A stretch of 64,000 nt of DNA, from NCBI RefSeq assembly GCF_044324875.1, contig NZ_CP172185.1; one strand, given 5' to 3'. Position numbers and translations under genes: made by a program. Of the stretch, positions 1,614 to 56,800 are shown piece after piece. Below the pieces are notes generated by a model. That model searched no databases, had not been told where the DNA came from, and saw only the letters and a list, made by a program, of their open reading frames with translations. This DNA comes from Escherichia coli (GTDB lineage Bacteria > Pseudomonadota > Gammaproteobacteria > Enterobacterales > Enterobacteriaceae). Each line of letters starts with the position of its first letter. The first letter of the stretch is position 1.

Positions 1614-1888
1614 AACGATGTTGCAACATTATTCAGCGTCATGGAAAAAAGGACTGACTGCACTCTGCTTACTGGCTGTTGCCGGGCTTAGCGGCTGCGA
1701 TCAAAAAGAGAATGCGGCGGCAAAAGTGGAATACGACGAACTTTCGAACAGCCAACCGCTGCGTGTCGATGCTAATAACCATACGGTAACCATGCTGGTG
1801 CAAATTAATGGTCGTTTCCTCACCGACGACACTCGTCACGGTATTGTGAACCGCCCCGGGTTTCCTGGAGAGTGTTTTATCTGTGAAC

Positions 1889-2779
1889 TCAGGCTGCCAG
1901 ATCATCGTTTCCGATGGAAGCATAATAAGCTTTTTCTGCTTCTGCCGGTGGGATATGGCCCAGCCTTTCCAGCAATCGTCGATTGTTATACCAGTCCACC
2001 CACGTGAGTGTGGCCAGCTCCACTTCTGTCCGGTTTTTCCAGCTCTTACGGTGTATTACCTCCGCTTTGTAAAGGCCATTGATGCTCTCCGCCATCGCGT
2101 TGTCATACGAGTCACCAGTACTTCCTGTTGATGCCAGTAATCCGGCTTCCTTAAGCCGCTGTGTGTAGGCCAGCGATACATACTGAGAACCTTTATCACT
2201 GTGATGGACTGTGCCGGACGGTCGACGGGCCCATAACGCCTGCTCCAGAGCATCCAGCACGAATGTCGTTTCCATAGACGATGAGACCCGCCACCCCACG
2301 ATGTATCCGGCAAACACATCAATGATGAACGCCACATAGACGACCCCCTGCCATGTGCTGACGTAAGTAAAATCAGCCACCCACAACTGGTCAGGACGTT
2401 CTGCCACAAACTGACGGTTTACGCGGTCGCCTGCGGCAACGGCTTTCCGGCTGACGGTAGTGCGGACCTTTTTACCCCGGAGAACACCGGCAAGTCCCAT
2501 AACCGCCATGAGGCGCGCCACTGTACATCTGGCTACCCTGATTCCTTCCCGTAACAACTGACGCCAGACTTTACGCACACCGTATACCTGATGATTCCCA
2601 TCGTATACGCGCAGTATCTCTTTCTTCAGCCAGTCATCGCGCTGCGCACGGGCACTGCGTTTATCCGGATGATGTCGCTGTTGCTGACAGTGGTAATACG
2701 TTGACGGGGCAATATGTAGTTCACTGCATACCGGTCCGACCCCGTACAGCTTACGCAGCTTATCCAGCAGTGGCATCAC
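1889..2779 (-). CDS. IS629 OrfB (DDE transposase catalytic subunit)
   Basis: 296 aa rve-domain ORF with IS3-family DDE motifs. Confidence 0.9.
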
Positions 2780-3102
2780 TTTTTCCAGAGGCGGTCGAAC
2801 TCCGCCTTCGCAAAATAAGCGGAAGCCTGGCGAAGGATATCGTTACTGCGGCGCAGTTCACGATTTTCACGTTCCAGCTCTTTCAGACGCTGACGTTCAG
2901 CGGTGGTGAGCCCGCCATCACCGCCTCCGGTATCCCGCTCATGCTGGCGTACCCAGACACGCAGAGTCTCCGGTGTACAGCCAATCTTTGGGGCAATGGA
3001 ACAAATTGCCGCCCACTGTGAGTCATATTCGCCCTGACTTTCCAGAACCATACGAATCGCCCTCTGACGGACTTCGGGGGAAAAACGAGTATTTTTAGTC
3101 AT
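2776..3102 (-). CDS. IS629 OrfA (HTH transposase subunit)
   Basis: 108 aa [19 protein letters not shown]...; overlaps OrfB as in IS3-family programmed -1 frameshift organisation. Confidence 0.9.
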
Positions 3103-3622
3103 TCTGTTTACCTCTTTCTCAGGGAGTTTAGTCTCCAGGATTCCCGGGGCGGTTCATTGTGTTTAAAGATGGCTCCAACGGACATAAATCGCTGTTTATG
3201 GGTTATGCGACCCCGAAAGCATTTTATGAAGCCCTGAAAGAGGCAGGTGGTACACCGGGCGAAAACATGACGATGGATAATAAAGAAACGACTCATGTCA
3301 CAGGCAGCAAACTGGATATTTCGGTCAACTGGCAAGGGGCGGCAAAAGCGTATTCCTTCGATGAAGTGATTGTTGACAGTAATGGCAAGAAACTGGACAT
3401 GCGCTTTGGCGGTAATTTAACGGCAGCAGAAGAGAAGAAAACGGGCTGCCTGGTGTGTCTGGATAGCTGCCCGGTCGGCATCGTCAGCAATGCAACATAC
3501 ACTTATGGTGCGGTTGAAAAACGAGGTGAAGTTAAATTCAAAGGCAATGCCTCGGTTCTCCCGGCGGATAACACGCTGGCAACGGTTACCTTTAAAATCA
3601 CCGAATAAAGCCAGGATAAAGA

Positions 3623-14921: not shown

Positions 14922-14951
14922 TAATACATAAAGCTGTTTCTTCAGACATAA

Positions 14952-15552
14952 TCAATCCTCTGATTTCAGTCTTTCAGCTGGAACAAACAAAATAACCGGA
15001 AATGTCCCTGCAAGAACAATCATTAAAGCAGAGATGGCCCCTTCTTCAAAAGTTCCACGGGCTGCTTCAGCATAAAGAAGTGTTACTGGCAGTTCTTTCA
15101 TCGCATCAGTGAAAACCAGCAGGGCACTGCTCACCAGAGCAACACAGGAAAGTGAACCCGAACAAAAGTTCCTGTACCATTTTCTCCCAGCAGACGTGAG
15201 GCTTGTTCCAGTGACGCTGGTATACGTCCCAGCCGGACATCAAGTGCGCCGATGGCTATTGCCTGAAATCGCATCGTACAGCAAATCACCAACAGGACAC
15301 CGACAGACATTAAAGGTAACCCCCTGTAATCCAGTAGTTCCGCCAGCCAGCGGTCATTTAGGGAGTCAGAAAACCAATCGCCAGAATCGTGCCCGGAAAG
15401 GCATAACCCAGCGACGCCCCTCTCATCACACCGCGCCTGAACAGTGGCATAGCGTTGAGGAATTCCGGGCATTCCAGACTACGAGCAGACTGACAAAAAT
15501 TACGACAAAGCGTTGAAGGAAGCCAGCGCGCGGACTGACAGGACTTTACCAT
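14952..15552 (-). pseudogene. ABC transporter permease remnant
   Basis: Hydrophobic ORFs 15358..15552, 15131..15472 and 14952..15134 in three frames, upstream of the ATPase remnant. Confidence 0.45.
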
Positions 15553-15822
15553 AAAAACACAGGCTAACCGCGCCTGCGTTTTTAATGACGGATGAAACAG
15601 AATCAGGTGCCGATTATGCCGCCGTCGGCTTTTACGATAACGACAGTTGAGGAGCGCGGACGACCAGCCTTATCGCCGTCAGGCCAGCTTGATACTGCCG
15701 TCGGATGCTGCGGATCGCTAAGCTGCGTATTCCGCTCTATTCGATCACGGATTGGCATCGAAGTCCGATCAGCGATTCGCATCCATTCGATCAACCGGGA
15801 ACTTAACTTTTTCTACCGCTTT

Positions 15823-16578
15823 TTAACGCGTTTTTTCGCTGCTTTCCACTACCGGGGGATTTTTCCTCAGTGACTCTCCCTGAAGGACCACTCGGTGTGA
15901 GTTATGTACCAGTCTGTCCAGGATGGCATCTGCTGTTGTTGGGTTCTCCATCAGACCATGCCATTTATCTACCGGGAACTGGCTTACCACTATCGTGCTG
16001 CTTTGTCCGTAACGATCCTCTATGAGCTCCAGAAGGTCATTACACTGGGCGTTACTTAACTGTTCCAGCCCCAGATCGTCCAGGATTAGAACCTGTATTT
16101 TTTGCAACTGTTTCAGATATTTCAGCCAGCTGCCATCAACACGTCCCTGAGCCAGTTGTTCCAGTAATCGCCCGGTTCTACAGTACCGGACGCTGTGTTT
16201 CTGTCGACATGCCTGTTCGCCCAGCGCATTGGCTATCCAGCTCTTGCCACATCCTGTCGGACCGGTTATCAGCAGGTTTTTCCTGTGGGTTATGTAGTGG
16301 CCGTTCAGCAGTTCTCTCATCTGTTCAGCCCGCAGACCTCTTGAGGCCGGATAGCGCAGCCCTTCCGGTGTTGCCTGGTATTTCAGGCCGGCATTTTTTC
16401 TCAACCGTGCCACACGGCTGTTTTCCCTGCTCAGAAGCTCGTCATCAACCAGCAGCGTCAGCCTTTCCTCGAACGACAGTTCGTCGTAGGTCTGAGGCGT
16501 TTCCCGCTGCCGTATCAGGCTCCCGGCCATCGCCGGGAGTTTCAGTTGGGTCAGTTTGTTTAACAGGTTATCACTCAT
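15823..16578 (-). CDS. IstB-like ATPase of the IS21-family element
   Basis: Walker A GPTGCGKS; likely start MSDNLLNKL at 16578 with AAGGAA RBS. Confidence 0.8.
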   Translation of the reverse strand: MSDNLLNKLTQLKLPAMAGSLIRQRETPQTYDELSFEERLTLLVDDELLSRENSRVARLRKNAGLKYQATPEGLRYPASRGLRAEQMRELLNGHYITHRKNLLITGPTGCGKSWIANALGEQACRQKHSVRYCRTGRLLEQLAQGRVDGSWLKYLKQLQKIQVLILDDLGLEQLSNAQCNDLLELIEDRYGQSSTIVVSQFPVDKWHGLMENPTTADAILDRLVHNSHRVVLQGESLRKNPPVVESSEKTR

Positions 16579-16594
16579 ACTGTTGTTCCTTCTG

Positions 16595-18130
16595 TCAGTG
16601 GTAGTAGCCCGGACCACGCAGGTTTTCATGCTCTGAAGCATATGCCGGATGTTGTTCGCCCTGGCGGGATAATGGAAGCTCCAGGTTCTCCCGATGGTGA
16701 CGCAGCAGATTGTCGATAAAGCGTCTGTCAGGGGCGTTATAGTGCAGGGCAACGTAACAGGCCTTTTCCAGCCGTTCCGGGCCGTATTTTTTCTGAAGTG
16801 CCAGCAGCCCCAGAACTGCACGATAAGCCAGTTCCGGATGGGGTTTTGCCTTCAGCATGGATTCAACCACCCGGCCTGTGGACGGGCCCGTACGTTTTCC
16901 CTGCTCGATCAGGCGTTCCGGTGTCCATGTCCCGTGCTGCCGGTGGCGCTCTGGCATGTGAAGCGGATTGGTTGTGTGTTTATATTCATGTGTGCTGCGC
17001 GGATGTTGCGCCACACACTGCCCCTTGTGCCAGAGCTGTACCACCGACTGCCCCGCCTTCAGTGACAGACGCTGACCGACCAGTTCGTGTGGAACGGAGT
17101 ACCAGTGACGGGCATATTCAACGTGGTAGTCAGGGCCAACCTTCACAGCTTTGTATTCCGTGTATTCATAAGGTGCCAGAGGCAGCGGAGAGAGTGCTGG
17201 CGCATCCAGTATGCGGAAGCGTTCTGCACGGGTTTGATTGCCGTACCCCTTCATTGGCCGGTTATTCATGTCTGTCAGTAACTCCCTAAGGCGCGCATTC
17301 AGCGCCCTGAGCGTGTGGAAGGTTTCATTACGGATGCGGGCAAGAAGCCATCGTTCAACGATGAGGACGCCGTTTTCTGCTTTTGGTTTATCTTTAGGTT
17401 TGCGTGGTCGGGCCGGGATGATAACCGTGCCATAGTGCTCAGCCAGTGCCTGATAACTGTCGTTGATGACAGGCTCATATCGATCGGCCTTTTTCACTGC
17501 GCTTCTGAGGTTATCGGGGATGAGCAGCTTCGGTACGCCGCCCAGGAAGGTCAGGCAACGGCTGTGGGCATTTAACCATGACATCATGTCCTGACCTTCG
17601 CACGCTTCAACGTAGGTATAGTTGGACGCCCCCATTACGGCCACGAAGATTGCCACGCGGCGTATCTCACCGGTGTCCGGATTAATAACAGGAACCGTAG
17701 GACCACAGAAGTCGATAAAAAGCTTTTCGCCGGCACGATGCTCCTGGCGCATGGAGAGACGTCGCGTTTTTTTCCACTCCCGGTAGCAACGGCAGAAGTG
17801 CGAGTATCCCATCGCTTTGTTACCCGCCTGTGCCTTGTATTCCATCCACAACAGTTGCCGCGTCACACCTGGTTTTCTCATTTCCGTATCGAAGTACAAC
17901 ATGTCAGGCATTACAAGCTCTGATGCAAAGGTGTCTTTGGGCGGAAAAATGAGTTTCTCCAGCGTGTCATGGGATATATCAGCAGGTAATGGCCATGACA
18001 GAGAAGAGGCTTTGAAGCGGGCAAGAACCTCAAAAACGGTTGAGGCGCTGATGTGTAACGTCAGTCCGATACAACGGTTAGTCAGCTTCTTGTCGAACTT
18101 GAGCTGAAGGATCTTAAAACAGGTTTCCAT
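16595..18130 (-). CDS. IstA-like DDE transposase of the IS21-family element
   Basis: 548 aa ORF; likely start METCFKILQ at 18130 with AGGAG RBS; N-terminal HTH and rve core. Confidence 0.8.
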   Translation of the reverse strand: METCFKILQLKFDKKLTNRCIGLTLHISASTVFEVLARFKASSLSWPLPADISHDTLEKLIFPPKDTFASELVMPDMLYFDTEMRKPGVTRQLLWMEYKAQAGNKAMGYSHFCRCYREWKKTRRLSMRQEHRAGEKLFIDFCGPTVPVINPDTGEIRRVAIFVAVMGASNYTYVEACEGQDMMSWLNAHSRCLTFLGGVPKLLIPDNLRSAVKKADRYEPVINDSYQALAEHYGTVIIPARPRKPKDKPKAENGVLIVERWLLARIRNETFHTLRALNARLRELLTDMNNRPMKGYGNQTRAERFRILDAPALSPLPLAPYEYTEYKAVKVGPDYHVEYARHWYSVPHELVGQRLSLKAGQSVVQLWHKGQCVAQHPRSTHEYKHTTNPLHMPERHRQHGTWTPERLIEQGKRTGPSTGRVVESMLKAKPHPELAYRAVLGLLALQKKYGPERLEKACYVALHYNAPDRRFIDNLLRHHRENLELPLSRQGEQHPAYASEHENLRGPGYYH

Positions 18131-18241
18131 AGTGCTCCTGGATTTTCTCTTTCTGGACATTGACGTCTCCACTGGTTTAAACACGGCAATGGAGACTGTG
18201 GTGAAAAGAGTTAATTCCCGGAGTGACTGGCAGGATGCCAA

Positions 18242-18365
18242 TCAATGATCGGAAGCATGCCAAATCGTGATCGATTGTGATGCCAAACTGTGATCGGAGA
18301 TGGATGCCAAATCATGATCGATTCGAATGCCAAACTGCGATCGATTCAGATGCCATTTTGCACTA
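18242..18365. repeat. Five tandem ~23-bp direct repeats (ATGCCAAAYYRTGATCGRWKNNN), terminal repeats of the IS21-family element
   Basis: Seen directly; inverted versions lie at the other IS end. Confidence 0.6.
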
Positions 18366-20227
18366 AGCCCTTCGCTTGGCTCGCCAGGGTGCTGGATGTT
18401 AATAAACAGCGTCCGGTTATCCGGAGTGAACGCGATGCCGGTGATTTCGCAGCCGCGCGGGCCGGTCAGGAAGCGGCGGAACTCATTGGTACCGGGAATC
18501 GTCGCCACCATCTGGTTGTTGCCCATGCCTTTGTAATCTTTAATATTTATGGTTGATGACGACACGTCGGTCTGGATCCATAGCACGCCGCGGTGATCGA
18601 AGCTCAGGCCATCGGCGCTGCCGAATTCCGCACCCTTCATGCTGCCTTTGGTTTCCGGTTTGTCTGTATCGGTGCGACCGCCCATCACAAGAATATCCCA
18701 GGCAAACTGCAGCGCGGTCGGGTCACCGTTATGCTCCAGCCAGTGAATGATGTGGCCGTAAACGTTTTTGGCGCGCGGGTTGGCCGCATCCACTGGCGCT
18801 TTTCCTTCCTTACCGCGATCGCTGTTGTTGGTGAGCGTGCAGTAAACGCTGCCGGCGTGATATGGATCGACCGCAATCCACTCCGGGCGGTCCATTTTAG
18901 TGGCCCCCACGGCGTCTGCCGCCAGACGGGTTTTAATCAACAGGTCGCCCTGGTTTTCAAACCCTTTACTGGCGTCGAGCCCATTTTGTCCGAACACCAG
19001 CGGTAGCCACTCGCCTTTGCCGTCGTCGTTAAATTTCGCCACGTACAGAGTGCCTTTTTCCAGCAGGTGCATGTTGGCTTTGCGATCCTGCGGGTTGAAT
19101 TTTCCTTCCGAGACAAATTTATATATGTATTCGAATTTCTGGTCATCGCCCATATAGACCACAACGCGGTTATCCGGGGCAATTGTCACCGCTGCGCCTT
19201 CGTGTTTGATGCGACCAAGCGCGGTGTGCTTGCGCGGCACTGAATGCGGATCGTATGGATCGATTTCCACCACCCAGCCGAAGCGGTTCGGCTCGTTCGG
19301 CGTGGCGTCGACGCTGAACCTTTTATCCACTTCGTTCCAGCGGTAAGAGTCGTCGCTCCCGCTGATACCGTAACGTTTTTCCAGCGGGTTCATCTCTGCT
19401 TTTTTTACGAAAATATCGGACCAGTTCTCTTCACACGTCAGATAGGTGCCCCACGGCGTAAATCCGTTGGCACAGTTCTGCATGGTGCCGAGAATGATTT
19501 CGCCTTTCGGATCGTCAACTGTTTGCATCAGTGGGTTATGCAGCGCCGGACCGGTGATTTTCATCGGCGTGTTAACGGTGATGCGGCGTGCGAACGATGA
19601 CGGGCGCACCACTTCCCAGCCCAGGGGCACTTTTTTTACTTCAATGACCGACACGCCCATCGCGTTCTGGCCTTTAAGAGCTTTATCGGCGCTCCAGTTG
19701 GCATCGCCATCTTTAAACAGTAGACCGTTATCGATGTATTCATGGTTTATGGCAAGCAGGCCGTGATCGGAGCTGTTCCCGCCCTGCGGCAGGCTAAACC
19801 ACGCCATGCCGTCGTGGTGCATCCCGGCCTGCGCCGCCTGTTCTTCCGTGGTGTTGCTACCGTCGGTTTTAAAAACCGGCAGATTTCCGGCAATCCCGGT
19901 GGCGTCGCCCCATTTGTAGAAGGGCTTCGCGATGTATCCTTCCGGCACGATAACGGTATCTTCCGTGGAAACCGGCAGGCTGGTGAAACCGAGCGTCGTC
20001 GCTTTGCCGAGGTTACCGCTTGCTTTGGAGACCACTTTCGCCAGCGCGTTTTCCTGTTTCAGCAGAAATGGGAACGCTGCCGCGGCACCGGCGACCGTGC
20101 CTGCCTGTAACAGACGGCGGCGTGACAAATAGACTTCCGCCACCTGCGAAAACGCGCGGTTATCGCTCGGGTTACTGATTTCTTCACTATGCTCACGTTT
20201 GAATAAAGTTTTTAACGGTCTGCCCAT
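18242..20227 (-). pseudogene. PhoX-type (DUF839) Tat-signal phosphatase, C-terminus replaced by the IS21-family end
   Basis: Twin-arginine motif LSRRRLLQAG; beta-propeller phosphatase-like body; the last ~40 codons of the ORF are encoded by the IS terminal repeats. Confidence 0.55.
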
Positions 20228-20869: not shown

Positions 20870-21606
<737 letters not shown>

Positions 21607-33750: not shown

Positions 33751-34178
33751 TTTTTGATTAATGGTGGGCTTGCTTAAATCTATCCGGCGTCTCTGTGGAC
33801 AAGGAGACCCGCGCCTCGATGAGTTCCGCACCTGATAATCCTAAAAAGACCCTCGGCTTCAGTGAGCCATTTTTTCTGTCAGGTTTTTAATCAGGTCTAT
33901 TTGCCGTTCATGTCATCAATAATCAGTCTTCGCAAAACCAGACAGGTAACTTGTATCTTATTTTTTAAAATAAGCTAATTGAGTTTTGTCAGTATCTATA
34001 TCAGGCCTGATATTCTTTGTGCAGAGCAGTGATTGCCCAGGCTATTCGGGCCAGTTTATTTGCCAGAGCGCAGGCGACAATATTTGAATGCTTATTGTCG
34101 AGTTGCTTTTGAACCCATTCAGCAACTCTGCCCTATTGAACCGCCCCGGGTTTCCTGGAGAGTGTTTTATCTGTGAAC

Positions 34179-35069
34179 TCAGGCTGCCAGATCATCGTTT
34201 CCGATGGAAGCATAATAAGATTTTTCTGCTTCTGCCGGTGGGATATGGCCCAGCCTTTCCAGCAATCGTCGATTGTTATACCAGTCCACCCACGTGAGTG
34301 TGGCCAGCTCCACTTCTGTCCGGTTTTTCCAGCTCTTACGGTGTATTACCTCCGCTTTGTAAAGGCCATTGATGCTCTCCGCCATCGCGTTGTCATACGA
34401 GTCACCAGTACTTCCTGTTGATGCCAGTAATCCGGCTTCCTTAAGCCGCTGTGTGTAGGCCAGCGATACATACTGAGAACCTTTATCACTGTGATGGACT
34501 GTGCCGGACGGTCGACGGGCCCATAACGCCTGCTCCAGAGCATCCAGCACGAATGTCGTTTCCATAGACGATGAGACCCGCCACCCCACGATGTATCCGG
34601 CAAACACATCAATGATGAACGCCACATAGACGACCCCCTCCCATGTGCTGACGTAAGTAAAATCAGCCACCCACAACTGGTCAGGACGTTCTGCCACAAA
34701 CTGACGGTTTACGCGGTCGCCTGCGGCAACGGCTTTCCGGCTGACGGTAGTGCGGACCTTTTTACCCCGGAGAACACCGGCAAGTCCCATAACCGCCATG
34801 AGGCGCGCCACTGTACATCTGGCTACCCTGATTCCTTCCCGTAACAACTGACGCCAGACTTTACGCACACCGTATACCTGATGATTCCCATCGTATACGC
34901 GCAGTATCTCTTTCTTCAGCCAGTCATCGCGCTGCGCACGGGCACTGCGTTTATCCGGATGATGTCGCTGTTGCTGACAGTGGTAATACGTTGACGGGGC
35001 AATATGTAGTTCACTGCATACCGGTCCGACCCCGTACAGCTTACGCAGCTTATCCAGCAGTGGCATCAC
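34179..35069 (-). CDS. IS629 OrfB
   Basis: Identical to copy 1 OrfB except for one residue (Q/E). Confidence 0.9.
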
Positions 35070-35392
35070 TTTTTCCAGAGGCGGTCGAACTCCGCCTTCG
35101 CAAAATAAGCGGAAGCCTGGCGAAGGATATCGTTACTGCGGCGCAGTTCACGATTTTCACGTTCCAGCTCTTTCAGACGCTGACGTTCAGCGGTGGTGAG
35201 CCCGCCATCACCGCCTCCGGTATCCCGCTCATGCTGGCGTACCCAGACACGCAGAGTCTCCGGTGTACAGCCAATCTTTGGGGCAATGGAACAAATTGCC
35301 GCCCACTGTGAGTCATATTCGCCCTGACTTTCCAGAACCATACGAATCGCCCTCTGACGGACTTCGGGGGAAAAACGAGTATTTTTAGTCAT
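35066..35392 (-). CDS. IS629 OrfA
   Basis: Identical to copy 1 OrfA except for one residue. Confidence 0.9.
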
Positions 35393-36351
35393 TCTGTTTA
35401 CCTCTTTCTCAGGGAGTTTAGTCTCCAGGATTCCCGGGGCGGTTCACTATTGATGCTCCAGCCGCATCATGAACGAGCGGGCGTACAGAACAAGTAACCG
35501 ACTCGTTTGCTGATCCCCAGCAGCATTGATTTACCACCGGTACTGTATTGTCGGGGAACAAGTCCTGTGGATGCTGCAAAATCCCTACTGCACGAAAATT
35601 GTTTACCATCACCAAGCTGGGATGATAGCAGGCTGGCCGTCATCGGCCCAACACCGGGGATTGTCATGATTCGTTGCACAGTAGCGTCAGCTTTGATTGA
35701 CTGGTTTAACTCTGATTCCAGTTCTGTTATTTGCTCAATACGATAAAGATAGTGAGCATGTAATTTCATCAGCAAGCGACTCAGATATTCAGGTATTTCG
35801 TGTTCAGCTAACGCCAGAGATAACCATTTTATTGCGGCATCCCCTGTCGGCAGTCTGATTCCAAATTCCAGCAAGAAACCGTGGATCTGGTTGTTTTTTT
35901 TCACCTTATCTCTGATGAGCGATTCTCTGACCCGATGTAATGCCCTCATTGCCTGCTGGGTTTCTGTTCTGGGCTGGACAAAACGCATTGATGGTCGTGA
36001 AGCCGCTTTGCATATGGCTTCTGCATCAATAAAATCATTCTTATTACCTTTGACAAACGGACGCACGAATTACGGAGAGATAAGTTTTTCTTCATGACCG
36101 ATGTCGCTGATACGCCGGGCCATAAAATGCGTACCAGCGCAGGCTTCCATAACAACTACTGAGGATGGACATGTTGCCAGAAACTGCATCAGCTTCGTAC
36201 GCGTAAACTTTTTACGCAAAAGCGCATTGCCAGATTTATCTTGACAATGAATATGGAAAGAATGTTTACCGAGATCGATACCAATAAGCGCAACGTTTTA
36301 CATGATGGTGCCCTCTAAAATAACCCACCCTGTCAGCGTACCGCTCACAGG

Positions 36352-55959: not shown

Positions 55960-56800
<841 letters not shown>

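What the first reader, a model, noticed from the sequence alone, without database searches (positions are those of the whole stretch)
18242..20227. Tat-exported PhoX-type phosphatase gene whose 3' end is replaced by the terminal repeats of an IS21-family element
The last ~40 codons of the 661-aa ORF are translated from the IS terminal repeat array, so the native C-terminus is lost. Whether the fusion retains activity is unknown.
Basis: partly seen in the sequence, partly recalled or inferred. Interest (0 to 1): 0.35.

Follow-up and report, generated by a model that had tools for sequence, protein, structure and literature searches.

The report
IS-interrupted phoX phosphatase gene
An accessory E. 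coli phosphatase gene (phoX) has been split by a recent insertion of a common mobile element (ISSso4); the gene's last 37 codons are still present on the far side of the element, so this is an ordinary, probably dead, insertion allele.

Summary
ORF 18242-20227 (-) is a 661-aa PhoX-family protein with a twin-arginine leader. Its last 39 codons are read from the repeat-bearing left end of an IS21-family element.

A complete 2,639-bp ISSso4-like element (15724-18362, intact istA and istB, TG...CA ends) sits inside phoX, flanked by a perfect 6-bp target duplication, GCTTAG. The native last 37 codons, the stop codon and a terminator-like hairpin lie just beyond the other IS end (15603-15717).

Removing the IS and one GCTTAG in silico restores a 659-aa ORF. 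It is 658/659 identical to an annotated intact E. coli PhoX, and its DNA is 99.8-99.9% identical over its full length in 98 complete E. coli genomes. All 21 homologues examined, and the solved P. fluorescens PhoX, run to that restored end. None stops at residue 622.

The displaced segment is as conserved as the rest of the enzyme and contains the last predicted beta-strand. I infer that the fusion protein misfolds, fails Tat export and is inactive. This was not tested.

This is an ordinary IS-disrupted accessory gene in a decaying genomic island. Interest is low.

The parts
18242..20227 (-). Fusion ORF of 661 aa: 622 PhoX residues followed by 39 IS-encoded residues and a TGA stop
18363..20227 (-). 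phoX 5' part: native nucleotides 1-1865 of 1980
   Evidence: The 22-kb region matches E. coli SCU-115 at 99.9% up to this point.
20069..20128 (-). Twin-arginine (Tat) leader, residues 34-53 (SRRRLLQAG...)
   Evidence: TAT_signal at 20.4 bits, just below the 22.7-bit cut-off. Homologues are named Tat pathway signal proteins.
18363..18368 (.). Target-site duplication GCTTAG, copy at the IS left end
15724..18362 (-). Complete ISSso4-like IS21-family element, 2,639 bp, with TG...CA termini
   Evidence: It is 99.7-100% identical over its full length to copies in E. coli genomes annotated as ISSso4 family. The match limits, query 225-2863, equal these coordinates.
18233..18362 (-). IS left terminal repeat array with 23-bp period (IstA-binding-type repeats). 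This DNA supplies the 39-codon tail of the ORF.
   Evidence: Family architecture is described in PMC10122671.
16595..18130 (-). istA transposase, 511 aa and intact
   Evidence: It is 511/511 identical to WP_045147483.1.
15823..16578 (-). istB helper AAA+ ATPase, 251 aa and intact
   Evidence: The length equals that of the annotated istB in L001.
15724..15800 (-). IS right terminal repeats
   Evidence: inverted copy of the motif at 15753-15770.
15718..15723 (.). Target-site duplication GCTTAG, copy at the IS right end
15603..15717 (-). Displaced native phoX 3' end: codons 623-659 and the TGA stop (DPQHPTAVSSWPDGDKAGRPRSSTVVIVKADGGIIGT*)
15560..15576 (-). Terminator-like hairpin after the native stop (CAGGC-N7-GCCTG followed by TGTTTTTAT on the - strand)
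   Evidence: The stem is listed. The - strand tail is read.

Best explanation
A recent transposition of an intact ISSso4-like IS21-family element into codon 622 of a 659-codon phoX gene split the gene in two.

Shown:
- The element (2,639 bp, TG...CA ends, multiple 23-bp-spaced terminal repeats, intact IstA transposase and IstB helper ATPase) is bounded by a 6-bp target duplication.
- The empty site, with a single GCTTAG, exists in other E. coli genomes.
- Removing the IS restores a full-length ORF that is otherwise unchanged.

Inferred:
- Transcription from the phoX promoter now runs into the IS left end.
- Translation continues for 39 unrelated codons through the terminal repeats to a TGA. 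The product is a 661-aa protein lacking the last 37 native residues.
- Those residues include the final beta-strand of the six-bladed propeller and 16 family-invariant positions, so the product most likely does not fold correctly.
- PhoX is a Tat substrate and Tat exports only folded proteins (established knowledge, not tested here). The product is therefore probably neither exported nor active, which makes this a null allele.
- The downstream genes were already pseudogenes, so no further polar effect is expected.
For: 1. Both junctions and the 6-bp duplication GCTTAG were read directly.
2. The three-way alignment with intact E. coli F1022 phoX shows one GCTTAG at the empty site and exact continuity on both sides.
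3. The in-silico excised gene (1,980 nt) matches 98 complete E. coli genomes at 100% coverage and 99.8-99.9% identity, annotated 'PhoX family protein'. The protein is 658/659 identical to WP_000533456.1.
4. The 22-kb region 8000-30000 matches E. coli SCU-115 and others at 99.9% in two pieces covering 88%, that is, everything except the IS. The record span of 19,356 bp equals 22,001 - 2,639 - 6.
5. The IS is 99.7-100% identical to ISSso4-annotated copies. IstA is 511/511 identical, and the IstA and IstB family models are passed.
6. All 21 homologues at 65-96% identity run to the restored C-terminus. In the displaced 37 aa, 16 columns are invariant (43%, against 44% for the rest of the mature enzyme).
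7. P. fluorescens PhoX (3ZWU) aligns to residues 70-658, including KPRSS...DGGI.G.
8. The AF2 model of the restored protein matches 3ZWU at TM 0.91 and places its last strand at 645-651 with pLDDT 86-90.
9. In the AF2 model of the fusion, residues 614-661 are unstructured with pLDDT below 50. Confidence in the N-terminal segment 82-137 also collapses, from 65-94 to 40-57 per 10-residue block, and strand 98-105 is lost. This is consistent with the C-terminal strand packing against the N-terminal one.
Against: The whole Pfam PhoX profile (positions 2-515 of 515) lies within the retained residues 80-615. A curated domain definition therefore does not require the missing tail, and only 5.6% of the protein is lost.

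AlphaFold confidence changes with a 22-sequence alignment are not a stability measurement. No expression, export or activity data exist. No Pho box was found upstream within 3 mismatches of the consensus, so even the intact gene's regulation is unverified.
Confidence: 0.9

Rival explanations
1. The fusion protein is still a working, exported phosphatase. On this reading the C-terminal 37 residues are dispensable, or the IS-encoded tail is tolerated.
For: The Pfam PhoX domain is entirely within the retained part. 622 of 659 residues are kept, and the leader and start are untouched.
Against: The missing segment is as conserved as the catalytic body: 16 of 37 columns are invariant, including the W-P, R-P-R, TVVI and GG-IG motifs. 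It is present in the crystallised enzyme and contains the last predicted strand. No natural homologue among those examined ends there. The tail has no predicted structure and no family match.
Confidence: 0.08
2. One reading: the 3' end of phoX was deleted and replaced by the IS end, through IS-mediated adjacent deletion or recombination between IS copies, so the native C-terminal coding sequence is gone from the genome.
For: This is how one junction looks when viewed alone.
Against: The missing 115 nt lie immediately beyond the other IS end. The two flanks carry the same 6-bp direct repeat, and the flanks join seamlessly when compared with intact alleles.
Confidence: 0.01
3. Assembly artefact: a repeated IS was placed wrongly into phoX by the assembler.
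For: ISSso4 is multi-copy in many E. coli genomes, up to 23 places per genome. The exact fusion protein is not on record elsewhere, and no complete E. coli genome has this allele.
Against: A misplaced repeat would not create a perfect 6-bp duplication of the target with exact TG...CA element ends. Two other IS copies in the window also have clean target duplications.
Confidence: 0.02

Closest known systems
E. coli 'PhoX family protein' WP_000533456.1 (for example strain F1022, NZ_OY754357.1, 2330095-2332074), the intact allele of this gene
   Same: 658/659 amino acids are identical after in-silico excision. The island context is the same: iha, decayed ICE genes and degraded iron ABC transporter genes.
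   Different: The window allele carries a 2,639-bp IS plus a 6-bp duplication after nucleotide 1865, and one substitution (P524 here, L in F1022).
Pseudomonas fluorescens Pf0-1 PhoX (PDB 3ZWU, 4A9V, 4A9X, 4ALF, 4AMF), the Tat-exported Fe/Ca-dependent alkaline phosphatase
   Same: E 1e-167 over residues 70-658, 47% identity, and model-to-structure TM 0.91. The other fold matches are six-bladed propellers.
   Different: It is a different species and only 47% identical. The window's encoded product lacks the equivalent of the last ~35 residues of the crystallised chain.
ISSso4 (IS21 family; the name used by RefSeq for the IstB of identical copies), with IS21/IS5376 as mechanistic models
   Same: It has IstA and IstB, TG...CA ends, multiple terminal direct repeats spaced 23 bp apart, and a short target duplication (PMC10122671).
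   Different: The target duplication here is 6 bp, whereas IS5376 gives 5 bp in vitro (PMC10122671). The left end shows five or six repeat units rather than the 'usually at least two' described for the family. It was not compared with the ISfinder reference entry itself.

Membership tests
PhoX alkaline phosphatase family (Pfam PF05787) | Significant match to the family profile above the curated cut-off | tested here: met
   553 bits against a cut-off of 24, profile positions 2-515 of 515.
PhoX alkaline phosphatase family (Pfam PF05787) | Homology and fold match to the solved PhoX (six-bladed beta-propeller) | tested here: met
   phmmer E 1.3e-167 to 3zwu_A. Foldseek TM 0.91 and 47% identity for the restored protein.
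PhoX alkaline phosphatase family (Pfam PF05787) | Twin-arginine (Tat) signal peptide | tested here: inconclusive
   The SRRRLLQAG motif is present. TAT_signal scores 20.4 bits, E 4.7e-4, just under the 22.7-bit cut-off. Homologues are named Tat pathway signal proteins.
PhoX alkaline phosphatase family (Pfam PF05787) | Complete coding sequence through the conserved C-terminus (...RPRS.TVVI....GG.IG) | tested here: not met
   The contiguous ORF stops being PhoX at residue 622. The conserved end is separated from it by the IS. The locus is therefore an interrupted gene, not a functional member as it stands.
PhoX alkaline phosphatase family (Pfam PF05787) | Fe3+/Ca2+-dependent phosphomonoesterase activity | not testable with these tools
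   This needs an enzyme assay.
IS21 family insertion sequence | istA (DDE transposase) followed by istB (AAA+ helper) | tested here: met
   NF033546 at 285 bits (cut-off 160), NF038214 at 258 bits (cut-off 200), Pfam IstB_IS21 at 204 bits.
IS21 family insertion sequence | Terminal inverted repeats made of multiple direct repeats (~23-bp spacing) ending in 5'-TG...CA-3' | tested here: met
   The family description is in PMC10122671.
IS21 family insertion sequence | Short direct target duplication flanking the element | tested here: met
   GCTTAG occurs twice in the window and once at the empty site. IS5376 gives 5 bp (PMC10122671). The family range of 4-8 bp is from my own knowledge of ISfinder.
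ISSso4 (specific element) | Near-identity over full length to elements carrying that name | tested here: met
   99.7-100% identity over 2,639 bp to copies whose istB RefSeq labels 'ISSso4 family'. IstA is 511/511 identical. The ISfinder reference was not available.

The most novel reading that the evidence does not exclude
The 661-aa PhoX::IS-tail fusion could be a folded, exported enzyme whose IS-encoded tail changes its properties, such as stability, localisation or substrate range. On that reading, reading through an IS21 terminal-repeat array would have created a new functional C-terminus rather than a dead gene.
Probability: 0.03. Interest if true: 0.3.

Novelty: already known. Interest (0 to 1): 0.07.

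Why it matters
It matters little beyond correct annotation. The locus should be annotated as one phoX pseudogene interrupted by ISSso4, with its two parts at 18363-20227 and 15603-15717. It should not be annotated as a 661-aa phosphatase or as a 3'-deleted gene.

It is one of three recent IS insertions with intact target duplications in this window that are absent from the closest reference island. That points to an IS-active strain in which a mostly decayed iha-bearing genomic island is losing one of its last intact cargo genes. The junction sequence could serve as a lineage marker.

Tried and rejected
- The PhoX structure paper (Yong et al. 2014) is not held. Other papers gave no residue-level detail on the C-terminus. 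The role of the last strand therefore rests on conservation and AlphaFold only.
- NCBIfam has no model that matches PhoX.
- The Pho-box consensus search found no match within 3 mismatches anywhere in the window. Promoter-like sites were not above shuffled expectation (3 found against 3.8 expected).
- An exact-sequence look-up of the fusion protein found nothing. No complete E. coli genome carries the same interrupted allele (0 places with at least 80% coverage).
- Locus L002 was not available to scripts. I used DNA alignment and L003 instead.
- '3' end deleted or replaced' was rejected because of the displaced remnant and the target duplication.
- 'ORF is complete as is' was rejected because every homologue runs 37 residues further.
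- Model coordinates are not exposed, so strand-strand contacts could not be measured.

Full report
**Observation.** The ORF listing gives a 661-aa ORF at 18242..20227 on the - strand. It matches Pfam PhoX (PF05787) at E 1e-165 over residues 80-615. It has a twin-arginine leader (SRRRLLQAG); TAT_signal matches residues 34-53 at 20.4 bits, just under the 22.7-bit cut-off. Immediately downstream on the same strand lie IS21-family istA and istB. The last 39 codons of the ORF run through an array of 23-bp-spaced repeats. Five copies of TGGCAT-N5-9-GATC lie at 18247-18355 and one inverted copy lies at 15753-15770. These are the only six matches in the window, against about 1 expected by chance.

Reading the - strand across both IS ends shows the element starting TGCAAAATGGCAT... 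at 18362 and ending ...GGAATACGCA at 15724. That is 2,639 bp. The hexamer GCTTAG lies immediately outside both ends, at 18363-18368 and 15718-15723. Directly after the right-hand copy the sequence continues in the phoX frame: DPQHPTAVSSWPDGDKAGRPRSSTVVIVKADGGIIGT, then a stop at 15603-15605, then a terminator-like hairpin. Deleting the IS and one GCTTAG in silico gives a 659-aa ORF.

**Independent confirmation of the empty site.**
- The restored 1,980-nt gene matches 98 complete E. coli genomes over 100% of its length at 99.8-99.9% identity. All are annotated PhoX family protein or phosphatase.
- The restored protein is 658/659 identical to WP_000533456.1 of strain F1022.
- A three-way alignment of the intact allele with the two window junctions shows a single GCTTAG in the intact gene and exact continuity on either side.
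- The 22-kb stretch 8000-30000 matches E. coli SCU-115 and others at 99.9% in two pieces covering 88%. The record span of 19,356 bp equals 22,001 - 2,639 - 6.
- blastn of the window against that region breaks exactly at 15723/18363 with a 6-bp overlap.

This is therefore a simple transposition with a 6-bp target duplication, not a replacement or deletion.

**The element.** It is 99.7-100% identical over its full length to copies found in many of the 5,426 E. coli genomes. RefSeq names the IstB of these copies 'IS21-like element ISSso4 family'. The shortest common match limits, query 225-2863, equal 15724-18362. IstA is 511/511 identical to WP_045147483.1, and both proteins pass NCBIfam's equivalog cut-offs. 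TG...CA termini, multiple terminal direct repeats with 23-bp spacing and a short target duplication are the described IS21-family architecture (PMC10122671). The element is intact, so the insertion is probably recent. The only other difference from the closest intact phoX is one amino acid.

**Consequence for the protein (inferred).** All 21 aligned homologues (65-96% identity, 650-672 aa) extend to the restored C-terminus, and none ends near residue 622.

The displaced 37 residues contain 16 invariant columns: P624, A629, S631, W633, P634, R641, P642, R643, T646, V647, V648, I649, G654, G655, I657 and G658. That is 43%, the same density as the rest of the mature enzyme at 44%. The solved P. 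fluorescens PhoX aligns through this segment.

An AlphaFold model of the restored protein (pTM 0.81) matches 3ZWU at TM 0.91. Its final strand is at 645-651, with pLDDT 86-90 over the last two 10-residue blocks, which contain it. A model of the fusion has no structure and pLDDT below 50 from residue 614 onward. It also loses confidence in residues 82-137, including strand 98-105. That is what one would expect if the last strand packs against the first, closing the propeller. This is a hint only, because the alignments are shallow and AlphaFold is not a stability predictor.

Tat exports only folded substrates (established knowledge). The most likely outcome is therefore no export and no activity. 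The counter-argument is that the Pfam domain model ends at residue 615 and so lies wholly within the retained part. I put about 0.8 on the null phenotype and about 0.97 on the insertion itself.

**Context.** In reference genomes the gene sits in an integrase-bearing island next to ynjA. The island carries iha, decayed ICE genes (TIGR03756/03757) and many IS fragments. The iron ABC-transporter genes downstream of phoX are already frameshifted pseudogenes, so no polar effect matters. phoX of this type is intact in only 98 of 5,426 complete E. coli genomes. The exact fusion protein is not on record elsewhere, and no complete genome has the same allele.

**Verdict.** This is an ordinary IS-interrupted accessory gene. 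Both components are known, and the mechanism is textbook insertional inactivation. The finding's interpretation needs one correction: the gene is interrupted, not 3'-replaced, and its C-terminal coding sequence is retained 2.6 kb away. Interest is low.

Noticed in passing
window 1847-3156 and 34137-35446: Two near-identical 1,310-bp IS3-family elements lie in the same orientation, with ends TGAACCGCCCCGGG...CCCCGGGGCGGTTCA. RefSeq annotates identical copies as 'IS3 family transposase' with an AL1L pseudoknot. They carry clean target duplications (TTG and CTAT). Both are absent from the otherwise collinear E. coli SCU-115 region. By position in SCU-115 the first falls in ydjY and the second in an IS110 pseudogene. 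Together with ISSso4 this makes three recent insertions in the part of the window that is collinear with SCU-115.
   Followed up: partly
window 15603-15794 (-): The 63-aa TTG-start ORF listed is the mirror image of the finding: IS right-end sequence read in frame into the displaced phoX 3' remnant. It is almost certainly not a gene.
   Followed up: yes
window 16595-18241 (-): The mechanical ORF for istA (548 aa, TTG at 18241) over-extends into the terminal repeats and abuts the phoX fusion stop. The annotated IstA is 511 aa, starting at 18130.
   Followed up: yes
window ~14950-15560 (-), and the wider region 8000-30000: The genes downstream of phoX (iron ABC transporter permease, ATP-binding protein and solute-binding protein) are fragmented. 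They are annotated as frameshifted pseudogenes in reference genomes too. The whole island (integrase next to ynjA, iha, TIGR03756/03757 ICE genes with internal stops, many IS remnants) is in decay.
   Followed up: partly
window 20994-21597 and 56055-56658: A 604-bp transposase-fragment sequence just upstream of phoX recurs in inverted orientation 35 kb away at 99.8% identity.
   Followed up: no
restored PhoX residue 524 (window about 18656-18658): The single amino-acid difference from WP_000533456.1 is Pro here against Leu in strain F1022. It lies in a low-confidence loop (pLDDT below 50 at 527-532).
   Followed up: no
L001 9260-9373 (E. coli F344, NZ_OY754421.1): Another E. coli genome carries an ISSso4 copy 0.9 kb from a 114-bp 'alkaline phosphatase' remnant that matches this phoX. 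This shows independent decay of the same gene in another strain.
   Followed up: no
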